Sequence record: PZ172995.1
From: a phage
Reading direction: 5' to 3' (one strand)
Length of the DNA: 64,000 bases
The translations under genes and the position numbers were made by a program. Shown here piece by piece: positions 44,410 to 58,132 of the stretch. The notes beneath the pieces are model-generated. The model was not told the origin of the DNA. It saw nothing but the letters and a program-made list of their open reading frames with translations, and made no database searches. Position 1 is the first letter of the stretch. Each line of letters begins with the position of its first letter.

Positions 44410-44680
44410 AGAGAAGTGGGAGATTTTACCACTAGTCAGTGAGGGTGGTAACGGTTGTGAAATGTACATGATACGAGGTCATGTTCCAGAACCAATTGCA
44501 CTTGAGATGGTAAACAATTTTACAGATGGCTCCTACAAAGACTTAGGAGAACCAACTGTCAAGCAACAATGGGTTAAACCTGTACCAGACAGCACAGGTA
44601 ACTGTAGTGTACTTTATCACGTTGTAGACCCTGCAAAATGCAAATCTGCAATGGCAGTAACAAACGTAACTTTTGATTGA
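44402..44680 (+). CDS. hypothetical protein
   Basis: 92 aa, coupled to Prs-like gene. Confidence 0.4.
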   Translation: MAKEKWEILPLVSEGGNGCEMYMIRGHVPEPIALEMVNNFTDGSYKDLGEPTVKQQWVKPVPDSTGNCSVLYHVVDPAKCKSAMAVTNVTFD

Positions 44681-45573
44681 GAGAGAAAACTATGAAAACA
44701 TCTATCCGTGTTACAGTTCATTCACCAACTAAAGGGACTCATGAAGAAGAGTTTAACATCATCCAATTCCCTTCTGGTGAGATTGGTGGACACTTTTCAC
44801 CAGAGTTTGTTGATTTTACTGCCTATGCAGCATCATCTATCAACAATGTGATTATGATTGTAAAAGGCTACGACAAGGACACATTGTTTGCTGTGGCACT
44901 TGCTAAAGAGGCAATTGATGATTTGATTCCTCATGATTATGCCTTAAAGACTGTCATCTTTTACTACTTACCAAATGCACGATATGACCGTCACATGTTT
45001 AAAGGTGATGCAGCAGCTTTGAAGGTTTTTGCTAAACAGGTTAATGCAATGGGTTTTGGCGCGGTCTGTGCAGTTGACCCTCACAGTTATGTGCCAGATA
45101 ACCTGTTTAACTGCTTCCAAAGTATTCCTCAAAATGAAATTGCAGTCCACTATGCAAATGACCCACTGGTTGATTACTTAGTAGCCCCAGATGCAGGTGC
45201 TTCTAAGAAGATTGCAGAAACTGCTAAAGAGTTGGATAAACCATACATCACAATGTCTAAAGTACGTAACCTTAAGACTGGTGAAATTACTGGTATGCGA
45301 ATCCTTGATGATGTTGATTTGACCGATAAAACTGTTATGATTCTCGACGATATCTGTGATGGTGGTCGAACCTTCATAGAAGCAGCTAAACATCTTCGTG
45401 AAGCAGGTGCAAAACGTGTGGAACTCTATGTAACACATGGCATCTTCTCTAAAGGTGTTGAAAACCTTCTTGACAATGGTATTGACCACATCTACACTAC
45501 AAACTCTTTAGGGGAAGCTAAAGACCGTGGTTTAACACATTATGGTCAAGTTACTGTAGCAAACCTTGATTAA
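44677..45573 (+). CDS. ribose-phosphate pyrophosphokinase (Prs)-like protein; candidate ADPR pyrophosphokinase
   Basis: 298 aa; type I PRTase PRPP-binding loop VMILDDICDGGRT; N-terminal FPSGEIGG resembles Prs. Confidence 0.7.
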   Translation: MREKTMKTSIRVTVHSPTKGTHEEEFNIIQFPSGEIGGHFSPEFVDFTAYAASSINNVIMIVKGYDKDTLFAVALAKEAIDDLIPHDYALKTVIFYYLPNARYDRHMFKGDAAALKVFAKQVNAMGFGAVCAVDPHSYVPDNLFNCFQSIPQNEIAVHYANDPLVDYLVAPDAGASKKIAETAKELDKPYITMSKVRNLKTGEITGMRILDDVDLTDKTVMILDDICDGGRTFIEAAKHLREAGAKRVELYVTHGIFSKGVENLLDNGIDHIYTTNSLGEAKDRGLTHYGQVTVANLD

Positions 45574-45619: not shown

Positions 45620-47401
45620 ATGACTAAATCACTTTATGCAGTACCAGCAGGTTTAAACGCAGATGCTTACAAATCTGGTCACATTTACCAGTATCCTAGC
45701 GCAACAGAATACTTGATGTTCAACCTGACACCACGTAGTGATAAATGGTTTAACAGTCCTTTAGCAATTGACGGTGTGGTGGCTTTTGGTATTCAACGTT
45801 TTGTTAAAGACTACTTAATAGACCACTGGAACGCCACCTTCTTCGAACGTGACAAAGAAGAAGCAATTGACGAAATCTTAGAAGTCATGAACGGTGTTCT
45901 GGGTAAAGATGCTATTGGCCGTGAACATTGGGAAGCACTTCACGACTTAGGTTATCTACCAGTTGAAGTATACGCTGTAGAAGAAGGCACAGTTGTTCCT
46001 ATGCGTGTACCAATGATTGTCTTCCAGAACACTGTTTCAGGTTTCCATTGGGTAGCGGGGTATCTGGAAGATGCTTTCTCTGCTGAGATTTGGAAGGCTT
46101 GTACCATTGCAACTATTGCATTGCACTACAAACGTATCTGTAAGAAGTGGTCTGACCTTACTTGTGATAACGACTTACATTTGCCTTATCAGTGCCATGA
46201 CTTTGCTATGCGTGGTATGTCCGGCTTTACCGATGACGCATTTAACGCTGTAGGCCACTTAACCAGCTTTAAAGGAACTGATAGCTTCCCTGCTGTATAT
46301 ACAGCTAAACGCATCTATGGACAGTCCTACCCAATCTCTGATATTGGTAGCTCTGTACCAGCCACTGAGCACTCTGTAATGTGTGCAAACATTGCTTGGG
46401 AAGGTGGTAATGAGTTGATTGAAGAAGAAAGACGCTTTAAAGGTGAGTTACAGACCTTCCGTCGTTTCTTAACAGAAACTTACCCAACTGGTATTGCAAG
46501 TGTTGTTTCAGACACTTATAACTTTTGGAGAACTGTGTCAGAAATCTTACCAGCACTTCGTAAAGAGATTATGGAACGTGATGGCAAACTGGTCATTCGT
46601 CCTGACTCTGGCGACCCTGTACATATTGTCACAGGTTATAAAGCAATCCACTTAGAGTGTGCTAAAAAGGCTTATTACGAACACCTAAGCAAGCTGGAAG
46701 CCAGCGACACAATGCTGAATGCTGTTCTGAACATGAAGCTTGAAAACATCAACTATGGTATTGCTGGATGGCTACTGTCAGAAGGCTACGAAATGGTTGT
46801 TGACAGAGAAGACTTTGAAGTTGCTGATACAGTGCTGTTGAAAAATGCTTATATGGTTGGTTCTGCAAACGTTGTAACACGTCCTGTAGCAGAGATTGAT
46901 GGGGCTATTAAGACCCTGTATAACATCTTTGGAGGGACTATCAACTCTAAAGGTTTTAAGGTACTGGATGAGCACATTGGCCTTATTTATGGTGACTCTA
47001 TCACGTTGGAACGTGCAAACGAAATCCTGAAACGTTTGTATGAAATGGGTTTTGCAAGCTCTAACGTAGTGTTTGGTGTAGGTTCTTATACTTACCAGTA
47101 CATGACTCGTGACACCTTTGCATTTGCTGTCAAAGCAACTCTTGCAAGTATTGGTGGTAAAGAGATTATGCTTGCAAAAGACCCTAAAACAGATAGCGGT
47201 GTTAAGAAGTCTGCTTTTGGTGGTGTAGCACCCATGTGGGATGGTGATAAGCTGAAAGCTGTAGATGGCTATGGATTCCAGAGCTTTGCAGATGTGCTTG
47301 AACATCCAGCTTGTGCTTTACGTTTAGTCTTTAGTGACTCTGAGCAGTTCGGTTACACAACTCTTGGTGATATTCGAAATAATATTGACAAGCAACTTTA
47401 A
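45620..47401 (+). CDS. nicotinamide phosphoribosyltransferase (NAMPT/NadV)-like protein
   Basis: 593 aa; N-terminal LNADAYKSGH resembles NAMPT/NAPRTase family substrate-binding region; adjacent to Prs-like gene. Confidence 0.65.
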   Translation: MTKSLYAVPAGLNADAYKSGHIYQYPSATEYLMFNLTPRSDKWFNSPLAIDGVVAFGIQRFVKDYLIDHWNATFFERDKEEAIDEILEVMNGVLGKDAIGREHWEALHDLGYLPVEVYAVEEGTVVPMRVPMIVFQNTVSGFHWVAGYLEDAFSAEIWKACTIATIALHYKRICKKWSDLTCDNDLHLPYQCHDFAMRGMSGFTDDAFNAVGHLTSFKGTDSFPAVYTAKRIYGQSYPISDIGSSVPATEHSVMCANIAWEGGNELIEEERRFKGELQTFRRFLTETYPTGIASVVSDTYNFWRTVSEILPALRKEIMERDGKLVIRPDSGDPVHIVTGYKAIHLECAKKAYYEHLSKLEASDTMLNAVLNMKLENINYGIAGWLLSEGYEMVVDREDFEVADTVLLKNAYMVGSANVVTRPVAEIDGAIKTLYNIFGGTINSKGFKVLDEHIGLIYGDSITLERANEILKRLYEMGFASSNVVFGVGSYTYQYMTRDTFAFAVKATLASIGGKEIMLAKDPKTDSGVKKSAFGGVAPMWDGDKLKAVDGYGFQSFADVLEHPACALRLVFSDSEQFGYTTLGDIRNNIDKQL

Positions 47402-53333: not shown

Positions 53334-53356
53334 AGGCTCCTTCGGGAGCCTTTTTC
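53334..53356 (+). terminator. rho-independent terminator (UUCG tetraloop)
   Basis: AGGCTCC-TTCG-GGAGCCT followed by TTTTC. Confidence 0.7.
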
Positions 53357-53374: not shown

Positions 53375-53722
53375 ATGACATTTAAAGAGTTCTGCCAAGC
53401 TACTTTCATAATTGTTTTCTTAGTTGGGGCAGGTGTCTGGGGAGGATACTCTTACAGAGACTACCAAGTTGCTGAAGCTGAGTTAAGCAATGAGAAACTA
53501 ATAAGTGTTGCTAAAGATGCTTATCAGGAAGGTTTAGCCACACTCAGCACCAATTACAAAAATGATTTGAAAGATGTGCTTGCTAAGAATAAGCATACAA
53601 AAGAGGTACTAACATATGAAAAAACTAAGCCAGAGTTTTATAATGTTTGTGTTACTGATAATTATGTCAGGGTGTTCAACGAACAAAGTGAACAGTACAT
53701 TCAAAAACTCCCAAGTAAGTGA
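53375..53722 (+). CDS. i-spanin (Rz-like) candidate
   Basis: 115 aa; N-terminal TM segment (ATFIIVFLVGAGVWGG) then charged helical periplasmic region; contains start of overlapping lipoprotein gene. Confidence 0.5.
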   Translation: MTFKEFCQATFIIVFLVGAGVWGGYSYRDYQVAEAELSNEKLISVAKDAYQEGLATLSTNYKNDLKDVLAKNKHTKEVLTYEKTKPEFYNVCVTDNYVRVFNEQSEQYIQKLPSK

Positions 53723-53885
53723 GAGTGACAAGTACACTCAAGAAGAGTCAAGATTCACTGTCAAAGGTAATACTGGTAGTGATGTGGCAGCAGCCCTTGA
53801 GTTTTATCGTGATGGTTTTTACCAGTGCACAATCAAAGCTAATAACCTGATTGATATGATTTTATTAGGAAATAAACAGCAATGA
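53616..53885 (+). CDS. o-spanin (Rz1-like lipoprotein) candidate
   Basis: 89 aa in +1 frame overlapping 3' end of 53375..53722; signal plus lipobox (LLIIMSGC). Confidence 0.5.
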   Translation: MKKLSQSFIMFVLLIIMSGCSTNKVNSTFKNSQVSESDKYTQEESRFTVKGNTGSDVAAALEFYRDGFYQCTIKANNLIDMILLGNKQQ

Positions 53886-54778: not shown

Positions 54779-54986
54779 AAAGACCCGCAAGATTGTACGT
54801 TCAGCAGTATTCATAGGGAGAGATGAAGTCGTCCCGTTTGCAGGGGAAGATGTACTAACTTATAAGAAGGGTTTAAAACGTAAATTCAGTGACCGTTTAC
54901 GCGGATTCATCTCTGAACCATTAGAAGATTTCAAAAGTCGCTGTGGCGAAGGCATCATCATTCAAGAGGCAATTATTCATGGCTGA
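54753..54986 (+). CDS. hypothetical small protein
   Basis: 77 aa ORF. Confidence 0.35.
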   Translation: MKVILARDKKTRKIVRSAVFIGRDEVVPFAGEDVLTYKKGLKRKFSDRLRGFISEPLEDFKSRCGEGIIIQEAIIHG

Positions 54987-55179
54987 TTTCTGCAAAGATT
55001 GTGCTATCGAAATGTTTGGACGTGATACAGGTGACTTAAAAGGTCTTATCACTGAAGATGACTTTAAAGCTGGCTATGCAATGCCAGTAATCTGTGAAGG
55101 TTGTGGATGTATCTGGGTAGACCACGAAGGACAACGTGTAAAACCTTCAGAAGATAAAGAATCTTGGGAGAGATGCTAA
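54979..55179 (+). CDS. small Cys-rich protein
   Basis: Start set at MADFCKDC...; CxxC ... CEGCGC pattern; directly upstream of macrodomain gene. Confidence 0.35.
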   Translation: MADFCKDCAIEMFGRDTGDLKGLITEDDFKAGYAMPVICEGCGCIWVDHEGQRVKPSEDKESWERC

Positions 55180-55965
55180 ATGGGTATTGTAAAAATCATC
55201 AATGGGGATATCTTCTCCGCATTTGATAAAGGTAAGTTTGATATTATTGGTCACGGTTGCAACTGTATGAATTTAATGGGCGCAGGTATCGCTGACAAGA
55301 TTTCTAAACTTTACCCAAAAGCATATGAGACTGATACAGAAGTCTATCTGTATGCAGGTGGTATAGGTCACAAACCATGTGAAAATTTACTAGGCAATTT
55401 CTCTGTAGCACGTTTAGAACAAGGCCGTATAGCTAACCTTTACACTCAGCTTAAGACTGGTAAAGATGCCCGATACAGTGCTTTAGAGTCATCTTTGAAA
55501 CAACTTAACAGATACTGTGAAGTCAATCAGTTGAAGAAAGTTGGGTTACCTATGATTGGTGCAGGTATCGGTGGACTAGACTCTCAAGCCGTCACAGTCA
55601 TCATTAATCAGGTGATGAAGAGTGTAGATGTGTATCTGTATGTCTATGAAGGAGAGATGTACCACAAGTTACGCTCAGGTTGGAAGAACTACTGTGAACC
55701 AGAATACTTTGCTGGTGTAGTAGTGTTCACTAATGATGTAGTTACCCTCTTCAGACGAAGAAAAGGCAAGATACATCAAAGTAACCCTCCGGTTGAAAAG
55801 ATGTCTCTAAGTAACGCTCTAGTTACCCACCTGTCGAAGAGCAATCACAGAATTGCAGTAACATTTGGCAGTGATGCAGATACATATATCTATGCAAGAA
55901 CTGATGAGGATGTTGAGGAAATTTTCTCTTCACCGGAAGTAACCTTCTTAGACGCAAAGAACTAA
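55180..55965 (+). CDS. macrodomain protein (TARG1/DarG-like ADP-ribose binding/hydrolase fold)
   Basis: 261 aa; N-terminal IINGDIF...DIIGHGCNCMNLMGAGIA and later GLPMIGAGIGGLD match TARG1-type macrodomain motifs. Confidence 0.6.
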   Translation: MGIVKIINGDIFSAFDKGKFDIIGHGCNCMNLMGAGIADKISKLYPKAYETDTEVYLYAGGIGHKPCENLLGNFSVARLEQGRIANLYTQLKTGKDARYSALESSLKQLNRYCEVNQLKKVGLPMIGAGIGGLDSQAVTVIINQVMKSVDVYLYVYEGEMYHKLRSGWKNYCEPEYFAGVVVFTNDVVTLFRRRKGKIHQSNPPVEKMSLSNALVTHLSKSNHRIAVTFGSDADTYIYARTDEDVEEIFSSPEVTFLDAKN

Positions 55966-56034
55966 GAAACTCTGTAGAATATTCACAATAGGTTAAGCCT
56001 TTCTTATCTGGTAAATTTTTCAGGTAAGGAGGGC

Positions 56035-56234
56035 TTTTTCATTTCAGGATTGTGCAGGTAGAGTTCTGGACAGAAATCTGTAGAGAAAATTTTGAACTCC
56101 AAAGAGAAAATTCATTTTCAAACTGTGCAGGTAATCTCCAAAGAGCTTTTTCATTTTCAAAACGTGCAGACCCCGCTCAGGTCGGGCAAGAAAAATCATT
56201 TTAGAATTGTGCAGGTAGGTGGGTGCAGGTGGGG
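56035..56234. repeat. cluster of four to five direct repeats (~25-bp unit TTTTCATTTTCAAA-yTGTGCAGGTA)
   Basis: Copies at ~56035-56060, 56111-56133, 56146-56170, 56193-56217, partial 56218-56234, in a 500-bp gene-free gap. Confidence 0.65.
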
Positions 56235-56471
56235 ATGTCGCCATTTCTCACAAGGCTACCACATCTGAAAAGAAAAGTCAACAGAAAAATTTGTAGCGGA
56301 TTGAAAAATAATTCTTGATTGTAGTTCTGTTTTGTGGTAGTCGCGTGCACCCGTTTCATTACAATTTTTGCAAAAAATATTTTTAAAATTCCTATTGACT
56401 CTTTGAGTATGGTTATCTAATATTTGCATCAGACGGGCAATCAAGCCCACTTCCTAAACTGGAGAATCAAA

Positions 56472-56678
56472 ATGCTTTACAGTCGTGAATTGATGGTTAC
56501 AACTAACGTTAACACAAAGGTAAAACGTTTTTATATGCAAGTGTGCGGCGCATGGCGTAGAATATCAGAAGCTGACTATTGCAACTATGTAGAGACGGCT
56601 ATTAATTCTAATTGCTACCTTACAATAAACACTAAGAAGTTTACAAGACAGACAGCAATTTACTACTACGATAAATAA
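56472..56678 (+). CDS. small early protein
   Basis: Start set at MLYSRE... after RBS CTGGAGAATCAAAATG (ORF-track frame 56424..56678). Confidence 0.45.
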   Translation: MLYSRELMVTTNVNTKVKRFYMQVCGAWRRISEADYCNYVETAINSNCYLTINTKKFTRQTAIYYYDK

Positions 56679-56679
56679 A

Positions 56680-56769
56680 AAAGTACTTTACAAGGGGCTT
56701 AAAAGCTGATATCTTAAGCCCCAGATAAAGAGCTTTACTAAATTAACCCTTAAACTAGGAGATTCAAAA
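56680..56769 (+). promoter_or_regulatory. early intergenic cassette type 1 (stem-loop + AGATAAAGAGCTTTAC + SD)
   Basis: AGTACTTTACA, hairpin GGGGCTTAAAAGCTGATATCTTAAGCCCC (56694-56722), AGATAAAGAGCTTTAC, CCTTAAACTAGGAGATTCAAAAATG. Confidence 0.6.
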
Positions 56770-57150
56770 ATGGCTTATCGTGCACCGAAATTCATCAACA
56801 AAGACAACTTCCGCAACGCACTGGAGAAGTCACTTGGTGAAAATTTTAAAGGTAACATTATCGTTGTTCACGTATTCAATTTTAAGTATGATGTAAACGG
56901 GAATAGAATCAACCATTACACAGCAACCATGTTAGATGGTACGCTATCAAGTGAAAAAGCTGTACTGAATGCACTTGCAGGACGTGGTAAAAACCTGATA
57001 AGATGCGATAAGAGACGTTATCAGGGTGGCGCATATGGTTATGATGATGCTGTTTATCATCTTGAAAATATGGGCTATTCAGTGGAAAAAGCTGGAGTGT
57101 CTCAAATAATCGGCAGTGACGGCTATGTGACAATTTTCAAAATTAACTAA
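56770..57150 (+). CDS. small early protein
   Basis: 126 aa, preceded by conserved AGGAGATTCAAAAATG. Confidence 0.5.
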   Translation: MAYRAPKFINKDNFRNALEKSLGENFKGNIIVVHVFNFKYDVNGNRINHYTATMLDGTLSSEKAVLNALAGRGKNLIRCDKRRYQGGAYGYDDAVYHLENMGYSVEKAGVSQIIGSDGYVTIFKIN

Positions 57151-57151
57151 T

Positions 57152-57238
57152 AAAGTACTTTACAGGGGGCTTATAGTTCGATAAAGTAAGCCCCAGATAA
57201 AGAGCTTTACCACTAAATCCTAAATTGGAGATTCAAAA
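57152..57238 (+). promoter_or_regulatory. early intergenic cassette type 1
   Basis: Hairpin GGGGGCTTAT...GTAAGCCCC (~57166-57194) + AGATAAAGAGCTTTACCACTAAATCCTAAATTGGAGATTCAAAAATG. Confidence 0.6.
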
Positions 57239-57529
57239 ATGGCTATTATTAAAAACGTTGTAATTCCTGCAAAAACTCGTGATGACGCTCGCATCATGGC
57301 GAAAAAGTTAGGCGGGAAAGTGGTTGACAACGGAAAACAAACTGCTGTAAGGTGGAACGTGAAGGCGGATAAACAAATGAATTTAAAAAATTCACCAATA
57401 AACCTTTTTACATGTGTAAACACTATCGGGAAAACGAATGTATACACTAAAAAGGCATATATCAGACGCATCGCCATGACGTCACCTATTCGGACAATGA
57501 GAAGTCATGCAAAGCTGAAAATTAAGTAA
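57239..57529 (+). CDS. small early protein
   Basis: 96 aa after conserved SD context. Confidence 0.5.
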   Translation: MAIIKNVVIPAKTRDDARIMAKKLGGKVVDNGKQTAVRWNVKADKQMNLKNSPINLFTCVNTIGKTNVYTKKAYIRRIAMTSPIRTMRSHAKLKIK

Positions 57530-57530
57530 T

Positions 57531-57619
57531 AGAGTACTTTACAGGGGGCTTAAAAGCTGATATCTTAAGCCCCAGATAAAGAGCTTTACCACTCAATCCT
57601 TAAACTAGGAGATTCAAAA
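57531..57619 (+). promoter_or_regulatory. early intergenic cassette type 1
   Basis: Hairpin GGGGGCTTAAAAGCTGATATCTTAAGCCCC (57545-57573), near-identical to copy at 56694. Confidence 0.6.
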
Positions 57620-58132
57620 ATGAAAACTGTAGACGCTACCTTTGAAGTTGTAAAAGAAAAATTTTCCATCATTTACGAAGCTGTCAATTGCTACGAAGCA
57701 AGCCATAATCTTGATAATTGGAAGTTTACAGATGACCATCAAGGCGGTGTGACTATTAAAAACCCCAACTGTCAGCGTAATGGATTTAAATATGCAATTC
57801 CTTTACATTACAGCCTTAAACAGCTTTCAATTGACTATGCAAAACAAGGCCGGGAAAATCCATCGAAAGAGGCTTACATCAGCTTACAGAAAGAACTAGA
57901 AAGAGATTTAGAGGCTTCAGAATATAACATCGCCGCGAAAGTTGTAGATGCAAACGGTAGCACGGTTTTAGAGAGTTTTTATATTGGTTATGCTTTCGAT
58001 TGGTGCTACAGTGACGGCGATGATTTAGATGACAGACTAAAAGAGGAAGTGAACAACGCAGACGCAGAATCTGAAGTATTAGAACGCTTGGAAGCATTAA
58101 AAGATTCAGTGATGAATATCTTTAAGAACTAA
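57620..58132 (+). CDS. small early acidic protein
   Basis: 170 aa, D/E-rich C-terminal half. Confidence 0.5.
   Translation: MKTVDATFEVVKEKFSIIYEAVNCYEASHNLDNWKFTDDHQGGVTIKNPNCQRNGFKYAIPLHYSLKQLSIDYAKQGRENPSKEAYISLQKELERDLEASEYNIAAKVVDANGSTVLESFYIGYAFDWCYSDGDDLDDRLKEEVNNADAESEVLERLEALKDSVMNIFKN

What the first reader, a model, noticed from the sequence alone, without database searches (positions are those of the whole stretch)
55180..55965. TARG1/DarG-like macrodomain protein in the early/middle region
Seen in sequence: the 261-aa protein has the two glycine-rich macrodomain segments in TARG1-like form (IINGDIF...DIIGHGCNCMNLMGAGIA, then GLPMIGAGIGGLD), followed by a ~100-aa C-terminal extension with no recognised motif. 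Established knowledge: macrodomains bind or hydrolyse ADP-ribose adducts, and DarG-type macrodomains remove ADP-ribose from DNA. Inference: a phage macrodomain could reverse host ADP-ribosylation of DNA or protein (DarT-like or other ART toxins), or release free ADPR that would feed the Prs-like/NAMPT-like pair 8 kb upstream.
Basis: partly seen in the sequence, partly recalled or inferred. Interest (0 to 1): 0.7.

Follow-up and report, generated by a model that had tools for sequence, protein, structure and literature searches.

The report
Phage macrodomain ADP-ribose hydrolase, two-domain form
A FelixO1-like phage gene encodes a real ADP-ribose-removing macrodomain enzyme, related to two recently described phage counter-defence enzymes, with an extra fast-evolving tail domain of unknown role; it extends a known family and is not a new kind of system.

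Summary
ORF 55180..55965 (+) encodes a 261-aa protein whose first ~157 residues are a confident macrodomain: Pfam above cut-off, AlphaFold pLDDT 90.6, and TARG1, DarG and Poa1p as the best structural matches. The window is a Felixounavirus, and more than 250 GenBank records already annotate this gene as "phosphatase" or "macro domain protein" (PHROG 335).

The label "TARG1/DarG-like" holds for the fold class only. The catalytic Lys (TARG1 K84, DarG K80) is an invariant Gln (Q90), and TARG1 D125 is Gly. Gln at this position also occurs in Streptomyces SCO6735, which cleaves DarT-made thymine-ADP-ribose on DNA.

Two phage homologues now have experimental roles:
- T4 Tk.4/AdfM (anti-DarTG2; 34% identity, identical active-site motifs).
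- Vibrio phage Gary Adpp (ADPR-1''-phosphate phosphatase feeding NARP1; 27% identity).

The window phage also carries a NARP1-type pair 7.8 kb upstream. Residues shown to be essential in both precedents are all conserved here, so sequence cannot decide between the two roles. I favour the AdfM-like role (confidence 0.42) over the Adpp-like role (0.30).

The C-terminal ~100 aa form an orphan, fast-evolving β-module with no relatives outside this phage group.

Verdict: new variant of a known kind, moderate interest.

The parts
55180..55965 (+). Complete CDS, 261 aa plus stop: two-domain macro protein
   Evidence: 100% identical to the 'phosphatase' of Escherichia phage vB_EcoM_P54. PHROG 335 E=2.6e-112. 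The N-terminus MGIVK aligns with the start of all homologues.
55180..55650 (+). Macrodomain, residues 1-157
   Evidence: Pfam Macro. AF2 model with strand/helix pattern E3-8...E150-155. Foldseek TARG1/DarG/Poa1p. 34% identity, E=5e-24 to T4 Tk.4/AdfM.
55252..55266 (+). Motif H25-G-C-N28-C29. H and N are the positions mutated in Gary Adpp (H24A, N27A). N corresponds to DarG N22 and PhiKZ AdfM N23.
   Evidence: Invariant in the family. Mutants. The same H-x-C-N-C form occurs in yeast Poa1p.
55276..55293 (+). Loop 1, M33-G-A-G36-I-A38 (phosphate-binding glycine loop)
   Evidence: Invariant M33, G36, A38. Shared with TARG1 and DarG.
55435..55449 (+). Motif N86-L-Y-T89-Q90. Q90 occupies the column of TARG1 K84, DarG K80 and SCO6735 Q85.
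   Evidence: Profile and multiple alignments. SCO6735 Gln85 equivalence and the inactive Q85A mutant come from PMC9411070.
55549..55575 (+). Loop 2, P124-M-I-G-A-G-I-G-G132 (diphosphate-binding loop). TARG1 D125 aligns with a Gly here.
55651..55962 (+). Linker helix (residues 158-167) plus orphan C-terminal β-module with terminal helix (residues ~176-250)
55166..55172 (+). Shine-Dalgarno-like GGGAGAG 7 nt before the ATG. The stop codon of the upstream ORF (54943..55179) abuts the ATG.
   Evidence: Read directly from the sequence
55995..56036 (+). Terminator-like hairpin followed by a T-run, directly after the gene
53334..53351 (+). Terminator-like hairpin upstream. Together with 55995-56036 it brackets a putative unit running from the spanins through five unknown small ORFs to the macro gene.
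44692..45573 (+). Adps-like (Prs-like) gene of a NARP1-type pair. Context for the rival explanation.
   Evidence: Pfam Pribosyltran/Pribosyl_synth. 38% identity, E=3e-37 to validated Gary Adps.
45620..47401 (+). Namat-like (NAMPT-like) gene of a NARP1-type pair. Context for the rival explanation.
   Evidence: Pfam NAPRTase/NAMPT_N. 43% identity, 297 bits to SPβL1 Namat versus 28%, 128 bits to KVP40 Nampt.

Best explanation
The gene encodes an orphan (toxin-less) ADP-ribosyl hydrolase used by the phage for counter-defence. The N-terminal macrodomain binds the ADP-ribose moiety through its two glycine loops. It cleaves the C1'' linkage with a Gln-type active site (N28 plus Q90) rather than the Lys of TARG1/DarG, as in Streptomyces SCO6735 and T4 Tk.4/AdfM, and releases free ADP-ribose. 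The most likely physiological substrate is thymine-N3-linked ADP-ribose placed on single-stranded phage DNA by host DarT2 toxins (DarTG2 defence), so the enzyme would restore replication of modified phage DNA, as AdfM does for T4. The ~100-aa C-terminal β-module is an accessory domain that packs on the macrodomain through a linker helix. Its role is not established. Shown here: the fold, the conserved ADP-ribose-binding and catalytic motifs, and homology to AdfM. Inferred: the substrate, and any partner-binding role for the C-terminal module.
For: Macrodomain fold and family membership. All ADP-ribose-binding and catalytic motifs are invariant across 27 homologues. The active-site signature is identical to T4 Tk.4/AdfM at all three motifs (HGCNC / NLYTQ / IGAGIG) and differs from Gary-type Adpp at each (HQCNC / NVYGQ / IGCGLA). 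Best pairwise score among characterised homologues is to T4 AdfM (34%, 82 bits). T4 tk.4 is required for growth on DarTG2 hosts by Tn-seq and a clean knockout. This fits the earlier finding that T4 lacking adfA and adfN stays DarTG2-resistant. The Gln-for-Lys active site has a biochemical precedent: SCO6735 Gln85 is essential, the enzyme cleaves DarT-made dT-ADPr and rescues E. coli from DarT. From established knowledge, T4 lacks NARP1, so this motif type has a NARP1-independent function. The Kolesnikvirus orthologue has Q in place of H25, although H24A abolishes Adpp function. The C-terminal module evolves about twice as fast as the macrodomain, or is replaced. That pattern would fit a partner-binding role better than a small-molecule phosphatase role, but this is weak inference.
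Against: Identity to T4 AdfM is only 34%. T4 AdfM is itself as close to Gary Adpp (35%, 77 bits) as to this protein, and deep nodes of the tree are unresolved with bootstrap below 25%. AdfM activity in T4 rests on genetics in one preprint, with no published biochemistry for the Gln-type phage enzyme. Acinetobacter NARP1-operon macros also carry HGCNC/NAYTQ, so the motif argument is not clean. The C-terminal module has no conserved basic surface (pI 4.6-9.5) and no similarity to DarG's DarT-binding domain. No paper in the library reports Felixounavirus behaviour on DarTG2 hosts.
Confidence: 0.42

Rival explanations
1. Adpp-like role acting in trans with NARP1. The macrodomain dephosphorylates ADPR-1''-phosphate, the product of RES-type (aRES) NAD+ cleavage, to ADPR. 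The phage's own Adps-like/Namat-like pair 7.8 kb upstream then rebuilds NAD+ from it, which overcomes aRES defence.
For: Gary Adpp is a homologue (27%, E~1e-12), and Pseudomonas NARP1-operon macros score as high as T4 AdfM does (30-33%, 76-80 bits). The residues whose mutation kills Adpp function (H24, N27) are invariant here as H25 and N28. The H-x-C-N-C motif is that of Poa1p, the classic ADPR-1''-P phosphatase. The window's pair is NARP1-type, not canonical Nampt/Prs. NARP1 and the macro gene co-occur in conserved synteny across Ounavirinae and related contigs. aRES occurs in E. coli, Klebsiella and Enterobacter, the host range of these phages. Phages almost never carry two members of this superfamily (2,813 places in 2,808 records; one in Gary and one in the window), so one enzyme may serve both roles.
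Against: The gene is not in the NARP1 operon: it lies ~17 genes and 7.8 kb away, with rIIA/rIIB and the spanins in between, and no Escherichia or Salmonella phage appears in the authors' Table S1. It differs from the validated Gary-type signature at all three motifs. The Kolesnikvirus orthologue has Q at the His position. A small-molecule phosphatase role leaves the C-terminal domain unexplained. The synteny is inherited within one phage lineage, so co-occurrence is not independent evidence.
Confidence: 0.3
2. Hydrolase for another ADP-ribose conjugate. Candidates are mono-ADP-ribosylated proteins (host or phage ART products), ADP-ribosylated RNA (for example CmdT-type or phosphate-end modification), O-acetyl-ADP-ribose, or ADPR-based immune signals.
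For: ALC1-like macrodomains are promiscuous. SCO6735 also acts on protein substrates and RNA phosphate ends. The Aravind-lab survey argues that phage macros mainly target soluble ADPr derivatives (PMC9503650). Some GenBank records call the gene 'O-acetyl-ADP-ribose deacetylase'.
Against: No experimental precedent for these substrates exists in this phage clade. SCO6735 (TARG1/ALC1 type) does not cleave 2'-OH RNA ADP-ribosylation, which only PARG-type macrodomains do. The GenBank names are automatic transfers. No ART gene was identified near the locus, where neighbours are PHROGs of unknown function. The rest of the genome was not screened.
Confidence: 0.15
3. Non-catalytic ADP-ribose binder or sponge, or a stoichiometric inhibitor of a host ART through protein-protein contact, with the macrodomain acting only as a binding module.
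For: The catalytic Lys of TARG1/DarG is absent. SCO6735 and DarG also inhibit DarT by direct interaction. The variable C-terminal module could be a binding surface.
Against: N28, Q90 and H25 are invariant, exactly the residues shown to be catalytic in SCO6735, Adpp and PhiKZ AdfM. Gary Adpp is enzymatically active in vitro.
Confidence: 0.05

Closest known systems
T4 Tk.4 = AdfM (anti-DarT factor Macrodomain; bioRxiv 10.1101/2025.11.20.689424)
   Same: Homologous macrodomain (34% identity, E=5e-24). Identical active-site motifs HGCNC / NLYTQ / IGAGIG. Orphan phage gene with no partner toxin.
   Different: Tk.4 is a single domain of 155 aa, whereas the window protein has an extra ~100-aa C-terminal module. 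The host phage T4 lacks NARP1 (established knowledge). The anti-DarTG2 phenotype is shown for T4 only.
Adpp of NARP1-AP (Vibrio phage Gary KNV71_gp137; bioRxiv 10.64898/2026.01.28.702374)
   Same: Same phage macro superfamily (27% identity). Conserved His and Asn that are essential for Adpp. The phage also encodes a NARP1-type Adps/Namat pair.
   Different: Adpp lies between Adps and Namat, whereas this gene is 7.8 kb downstream. Motifs differ (HQCNC / NVYGQ / IGCGLAGG). Adpp is a single domain of 158 aa.
Streptomyces coelicolor SCO6735 (PDB 5E3B; PMC9411070)
   Same: ALC1-like macrodomain with Gln at the position of the TARG1/DarG catalytic Lys. Orphan enzyme that cleaves DarT-made dT-ADPr. 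Profile hit E=4e-15.
   Different: Bacterial, DNA-damage-induced and single-domain. Residue equivalence with the window protein was established transitively through TARG1/DarG alignments, not by direct alignment here.
DarG antitoxin of DarTG2 (PDB 5M3I, 5M31/5M3E)
   Same: Fold (TM 0.74-0.77). The Asn of the V-N-C motif. PADLOC DarG model E=3.7e-13 over the macro part.
   Different: K80 is replaced by Q90. There is no DarT partner gene. The C-terminal module does not match DarG's DarT-binding domain. 48 bits against a 250-bit equivalog cut-off.
Human TARG1/OARD1 (PDB 4J5S)
   Same: Best structural and profile match (TM 0.80-0.83; E=7.5e-17).
   Different: The catalytic dyad K84/D125 is replaced by Q90/Gly.
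Yeast Poa1p (PDB 6LFQ), ADP-ribose-1''-phosphate phosphatase
   Same: H-x-C-N-C motif and absence of the Lys. TM 0.73.
   Different: Poa1p has T-S rather than T-Q. Poa1p S30 corresponds to L32 here. Loop 2 is divergent (PQINSGIFG).
Chimallivirus AdfM (PhiKZ gp104; PMC13309987)
   Same: Phage orphan macrodomain. It has been shown in vitro to remove DarT2 ADP-ribose from DNA, the same proposed biological role.
   Different: A different lineage that keeps DarG's N23/K78 (Lys type). It is imported into the phage nucleus.

Membership tests
Macro domain superfamily (Pfam PF01661) | Profile score above the curated gathering threshold | tested here: met
   31.3 bits versus 22, E=2e-7, residues 25-141
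Macro domain superfamily (Pfam PF01661) | Three-layer α/β/α macro fold | tested here: met
   AF2 pLDDT 90.6. Foldseek probability 1.00 and TM 0.73-0.83 to TARG1, DarG and Poa1p.
Macro domain superfamily (Pfam PF01661) | Two glycine-rich ADP-ribose/diphosphate-binding loops and the G-D adenine-contact motif | tested here: met
   G9-D10, M33-G-x-G36-x-A38 and P124-x-I-G-A-G129 are invariant or nearly so
TARG1-type hydrolase | Catalytic Lys84/Asp125 dyad | tested here: not met
   K84 aligns with invariant Q90 and D125 with a Gly
DarG antitoxin (DarTG2) | Catalytic Lys80 | tested here: not met
   N-F-P-T-K80 aligns with N-L-Y-T-Q90 (DarG sequences verified)
DarG antitoxin (DarTG2) | Active-site Asn (N22) | tested here: met
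   N28 is invariant and in the same column
DarG antitoxin (DarTG2) | Full-length equivalog score, including the C-terminal DarT-binding domain | tested here: not met
   NCBIfam NF048014 scores 48.4 bits against a cut-off of 250. The match covers profile positions 4-153 of 338 only. PADLOC DarG matches positions 17-146 of 329 only.
DarG antitoxin (DarTG2) | Adjacent cognate darT toxin gene | tested here: not met
   Neighbours are spanins and small PHROGs of unknown function. The gene is phage-borne and orphan.
Gln-type ALC1-like hydrolase (SCO6735 type) | Gln at the position of the TARG1/DarG catalytic Lys | tested here: met
   Q90 is invariant in that column. PMC9411070 states that SCO6735 Gln85 is the equivalent of K84/K80. 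The equivalence is transitive, and no direct alignment to 5E3B was obtained.
Gln-type ALC1-like hydrolase (SCO6735 type) | Hydrolysis of thymidine-linked ADP-ribose on ssDNA | not testable with these tools
   Needs an enzyme assay
T4 Tk.4/AdfM family | Significant homology and a shared active-site signature | tested here: met
   34% identity, E=5e-24. HGCNC/NLYTQ/IGAGIG are identical. However, the clade relationship is unresolved (bootstrap below 25%).
T4 Tk.4/AdfM family | Required for phage growth on DarTG2 hosts | not testable with these tools
   Genetic phenotype, known for T4 only
Adpp (NARP1-AP) | Macro gene located within the NARP1 operon (within two genes of Adps/Namat) | tested here: not met
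   7.8 kb and ~17 genes downstream. No Escherichia or Salmonella phage in Table S1.
Adpp (NARP1-AP) | Genome encodes NARP1 (Adps plus Namat) | tested here: met
   The window pair is closer to validated Adps/Namat than to Nampt
Adpp (NARP1-AP) | Essential His and Asn (Gary H24, N27) | tested here: met
   H25 and N28 are invariant. The Kolesnikvirus orthologue has Q at the His position.
Adpp (NARP1-AP) | ADPR-1''-phosphate phosphatase activity | not testable with these tools
   Needs an LC-MS assay

The most novel reading that the evidence does not exclude
The Ounavirinae two-domain protein is a dual-purpose counter-defence enzyme. In this reading its Gln-type macrodomain removes DarT2 thymine-ADP-ribose from phage DNA and also converts ADPR-1''-phosphate to ADPR for the phage's own NARP1 acting in trans. 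The fast-evolving, genus-specific C-terminal orphan module would be a toxin-binding inhibitor (of DarT2, aRES or another NAD-consuming effector), analogous but not homologous to the C-terminal domain of DarG.
Probability: 0.12. Interest if true: 0.65.

Novelty: new variant of a known kind. Interest (0 to 1): 0.4.

Why it matters
If the favoured reading holds, FelixO1-like phages, which are widely used for Salmonella and E. coli typing and therapy, carry a built-in eraser of DarT2 DNA ADP-ribosylation. That would help predict their host range on DarTG2-bearing strains. If the rival holds, a phage can run an extended NARP1-AP pathway with the phosphatase encoded far from the operon. The published figure of 15% of NARP1 phages having Adpp, counted only within two genes of the operon, would then underestimate how common aRES evasion is. 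In either case the locus shows that the two named phage macro activities (AdfM and Adpp) belong to one Gln-type superfamily. Its members cannot yet be told apart by sequence, and phages almost never carry two of them, so substrate promiscuity can be tested directly. The orphan C-terminal module is a small, well-defined target for finding a new protein-protein counter-defence interface.

Tried and rejected
1. The word-indexed homologue search with the C-terminal 102 aa alone returned nothing. The exhaustive phmmer search returned only its own family plus one spurious repetitive protein, P0031.
3. A conserved nucleic-acid-binding surface on the C-terminal module was rejected. Its pI ranges from 4.6 to 9.5, and the RRRKGK hairpin occurs only in close Felixounavirus relatives.
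4. The paralogue test asked whether a phage with a validated Adpp also carries a Tk.4-type macro. It was uninformative, because Gary has a single macro gene.
5. A bootstrapped NJ tree meant to place the protein with AdfM or Adpp left the deep nodes unresolved.
6. The curated DarG models (PADLOC, NCBIfam) score the window protein, T4 AdfM and Gary Adpp about equally, so they do not discriminate.
7. I could not obtain a direct alignment to SCO6735 (5E3B), because five TARG1 sequence variants fill the alignment output. The equivalence is therefore transitive.
8. The AFDB50 fold library was unavailable.
9. Literature searches for Felixounavirus together with DarTG2, macrodomain or NARP1 returned nothing. 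The original DarTG defence paper is not held.
10. Rfam found nothing in the repeat-bearing gap downstream.
11. I did not screen the phage for its own ADP-ribosyltransferases.
Full report
**Observation.** Both quoted glycine-rich segments are in the translation. A GGGAGAG Shine-Dalgarno-like element lies 7 nt upstream of the ATG, and the stop codon of the preceding small ORF abuts the ATG. A terminator-like hairpin follows the gene at 55995-56036, and another lies at 53334-53351. Together they bracket a putative unit that runs from the spanin genes through five small ORFs of unknown function to this gene. The match to the Macro family is well beyond chance:
- Pfam PF01661 scores 31.3 bits against a gathering score of 22.
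- PHROG 335 matches at E=2.6e-112 over the whole protein.
- A profile of 27 homologues hits TARG1 at 7.5e-17 and M. tuberculosis DarG at 2.7e-16.

**What the window is.** The region is 97% identical to Escherichia phage SME50, a Felixounavirus (Ounavirinae), and the protein is 100% identical to the 'phosphatase' of phage vB_EcoM_P54. Public records already call the gene 'phosphatase', 'macro domain protein' or 'O-acetyl-ADP-ribose deacetylase', so the gene family is not a discovery. A tblastn search finds relatives in 2,808 phage records. Only 263 of these cover the full length, and the rest, mostly T4-like phages, match residues ~3-160 only.

**Structure.** AlphaFold2 with the family alignment gives a confident model (mean pLDDT 90.6, pTM 0.88). 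It has a macrodomain (1-156), a linker helix (158-167), and a β-module with a terminal helix (~176-250). Foldseek against the PDB ranks TARG1 first (TM 0.80-0.83), then T. aquaticus and M. tuberculosis DarG (0.74-0.77) and yeast Poa1p (0.73).

**Active site.** The family has strictly invariant G9, H25, G26, N28, C29, M33, G36, A38, N86, L87, T89, Q90, P124, G127 and G129. I verified the PDB sequences of Mtb DarG, Taq DarG and Poa1p and aligned them with TARG1 and the phage proteins. Four points follow:
- The catalytic Lys of TARG1 (K84, L-I-T-K) and DarG (K80, F-P-T-K) is replaced by invariant Gln (L-Y-T-Q90).
- TARG1 D125 aligns with a Gly.
- The Asn of DarG's V-N22-C motif is kept as N28.
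- The H-x-C-N-C motif has the form seen in Poa1p (H23-S-C-N-C).

So 'TARG1-like form' is true for the fold but false for the catalytic residues.

It does not kill the hypothesis, because a Gln-type member of this class is biochemically characterised. Streptomyces SCO6735 (PDB 5E3B, third-best distinct protein in my profile search) has Gln85 at the position of K84/K80. Q85A is inactive. The enzyme efficiently removes DarT-made ADP-ribose from thymidine in ssDNA and rescues E. coli from DarT (PMC9411070). My equivalence of Q90 with SCO6735 Q85 is transitive, through TARG1 and DarG. I could not obtain a direct alignment.

**Two experimentally characterised phage homologues.**
- *T4 Tk.4.* The gene next to vs in T4 was identified by transposon sequencing and a clean knockout as necessary for growth on a DarTG2 host, and was named AdfM (bioRxiv 10.1101/2025.11.20.689424). 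This fits the earlier report that T4 lacking adfA and adfN is still DarTG2-resistant (PMC11825919). The window macrodomain is 34% identical to Tk.4 (E=5e-24).
- *Gary Adpp.* A Poa1p-like Macro protein encoded between Adps and Namat in Vibrio phage Gary dephosphorylates ADPR-1''-phosphate, the product of RES-type (aRES) NAD+ cleavage, to ADPR. NARP1 can then rebuild NAD+ (bioRxiv 10.64898/2026.01.28.702374). I took the sequence from the paper's Table S1. The window protein is 27% identical to it, and 30-33% identical to Pseudomonas NARP1-operon macros.

A third protein also called AdfM, PhiKZ gp104, belongs to a different, Lys-type lineage (N23/K78). It has been shown in vitro to remove DarT2 ADP-ribose (PMC13309987).

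**Can sequence decide between the two roles?** Not cleanly.
- T4 AdfM is as close to Gary Adpp (35%, 77 bits) as to the window protein (34%, 82 bits).
- In a bootstrapped NJ tree the two-domain proteins form their own clade (75%), and the deeper nodes are unresolved (below 25%).
- Curated DarG models score all three proteins alike.
- Every residue shown to be essential in a precedent is conserved here. Gary Adpp H24 and N27 correspond to H25 and N28, PhiKZ N23 to N28, and SCO6735 Q85 to Q90.
- Gary has a single macro gene, so does the window, and only 5 of 2,808 phage records show two places. There is no evidence of paralogous specialisation.

*Favouring the AdfM-like reading:*
- The window protein matches T4 AdfM at all three active-site motifs (HGCNC / NLYTQ / IGAGIG). 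Gary-type and Pseudomonas-type Adpp differ at each (HQ[CA]NC / N-x-Y-G-Q / IG-x-G-L).
- This motif type is maintained in T4, which has no NARP1 (established knowledge).
- The Kolesnikvirus orthologue has Gln at the His position whose alanine mutant kills Adpp.
- A small-molecule phosphatase has no obvious need for an extra, rapidly evolving domain.

*Favouring the Adpp-like reading:*
- The phage does carry a NARP1-type pair. Its NAMPT-like protein is 43% identical (297 bits) to validated SPβL1 Namat against 28% (128 bits) to KVP40 Nampt, and its Prs-like protein is 38% identical to Gary Adps.
- The layout NARP1 - rIIA - rIIB - ... - spanins - macro is conserved in Kolesnikvirus and in two distant metagenomic contigs. 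This synteny is inherited within one lineage, so it is not independent evidence.
- Acinetobacter NARP1-operon macros carry HGCNC/NAYTQ, which weakens the motif argument.

I put the AdfM-like role at about 0.42 and the Adpp-like role at 0.30. The two are not mutually exclusive. The general statement that this is a catalytically competent Gln-type ADP-ribosyl hydrolase used for counter-defence I hold at about 0.8.

**The C-terminal module.** Modelled alone it still folds (pLDDT 78.9, core blocks 83-90) as a small β-sandwich with a terminal helix. It has no significant structural relative:
- In BFVD the only match is its own family, the SUSP2 macro protein.
- An exhaustive phmmer search of 1.8 billion representatives finds only its own family.

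It is homologous to the C-termini of distant two-domain relatives (hhalign 95.5%, E=1.4e-8, 22% identity). It diverges much faster than the macrodomain, with 12-23% identity against 39-53% in the same protein pairs. The Kolesnikvirus protein has an appendage of the same length with no detectable similarity at all. Charge is not conserved (pI 4.6-9.5), and the basic RRRKGK hairpin is confined to close relatives, so I reject a conserved DNA-binding surface. The module does not match DarG's toxin-binding domain. Only N170, P174, F177, G179, D232 and Y236 are conserved, mostly at the junction with the macrodomain. The linker helix is confident only in the full-length model, which suggests it packs on the macrodomain. 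A partner-binding role in an arms race is a reasonable guess and nothing more.

**Comparison and novelty.** The protein works like the Gln-type ALC1-like hydrolases (SCO6735, T4 AdfM, and probably Adpp). It is a member of the Macro superfamily and of the phage Tk.4/Adpp superfamily. It is not a TARG1-type enzyme or a DarG equivalog, because defining features were tested and not met. No paper in the searchable library links Felixounavirus to macrodomains, DarTG2 or NARP1.

I rate it a new variant of a known kind. It belongs to a known enzyme family with a known class of function, and its two-domain architecture with an orphan, hypervariable C-terminal module is shared by neither characterised homologue. 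Interest is moderate (0.4).

Noticed in passing
window 56030-56296: Four imperfect copies (spacing 39-82 nt) of a ~34-nt unit 'AAAGAG..TTCATTTTCAAA..GTGCAG' lie immediately after the macro gene's terminator-like hairpin. No Rfam family matches there and no convincing ORF. Function unknown.
   Followed up: partly
window 56667-56752, 57139-57224, 57518-57603 (and 56745-56772, 57214-57241, 57595-57622): An 86-nt intergenic cassette is repeated three times at 72-100% identity. It contains a TTTACA promoter-like hexamer, a GGGGCTTA...TAAGCCCC hairpin and AGATAAAGAGCTTTAC. Each copy is followed by a conserved ribosome-binding block CTAGGAGATTCAAAAATG in front of a small ORF of unknown function. These look like modular promoter/terminator units framing single small genes.
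   Followed up: partly
window 54943-55179 (probable start at the ATG 36 nt downstream, codon 13 of the listed ORF): A small ORF directly upstream has its stop abutting the macro ATG. It has a CxxC...CxxCxC cysteine pattern (CKDCAIEMFG...ICEGCGC) suggesting a zinc ribbon. It belongs to PHROG 2210 (unknown function) and has no Pfam hit.
   Followed up: partly
window 44677-45573 and 45620-47401: The Prs-like/NAMPT-like pair is NARP1-type (Adps/Namat) by comparison with validated sequences. In SME50 and in metagenomic contig L005 an HNH homing endonuclease is inserted beside the pair. It is absent in the window.
   Followed up: yes
L006:11998-12780 (Erwinia phage vEam_PM_6, Kolesnikvirus): The syntenic 260-aa orthologue keeps NLYTQ and IGAGIGG but has Q at the otherwise invariant His25 position (GQGCNC). 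Its C-terminal ~100 aa show no detectable similarity to the Felixounavirus module.
   Followed up: partly
literature: Two unrelated phage macrodomain lineages have both been named AdfM. One is T4 Tk.4 (Gln type, genetics only). The other is PhiKZ gp104 (Lys type, in vitro activity shown). This is a nomenclature clash that could mislead annotation transfer.
   Followed up: yes
Table S1 of bioRxiv 10.64898/2026.01.28.702374: NARP1-operon Macro proteins are heterogeneous at the residue before the key Gln. Vibrio and Pseudomonas types have Y-G-Q, Acinetobacter types A-Y-T-Q, and Vibrio 184E37 types L-H-A-Q. Only the Gary (G-Q) type has been assayed.
   Followed up: partly
window 53375-53885: An overlapping i-spanin/o-spanin pair (PHROG 1152 Rz-like; lipobox LLIIMSGCS in the embedded ORF) heads the same putative transcription unit as the macro gene.
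   Followed up: no
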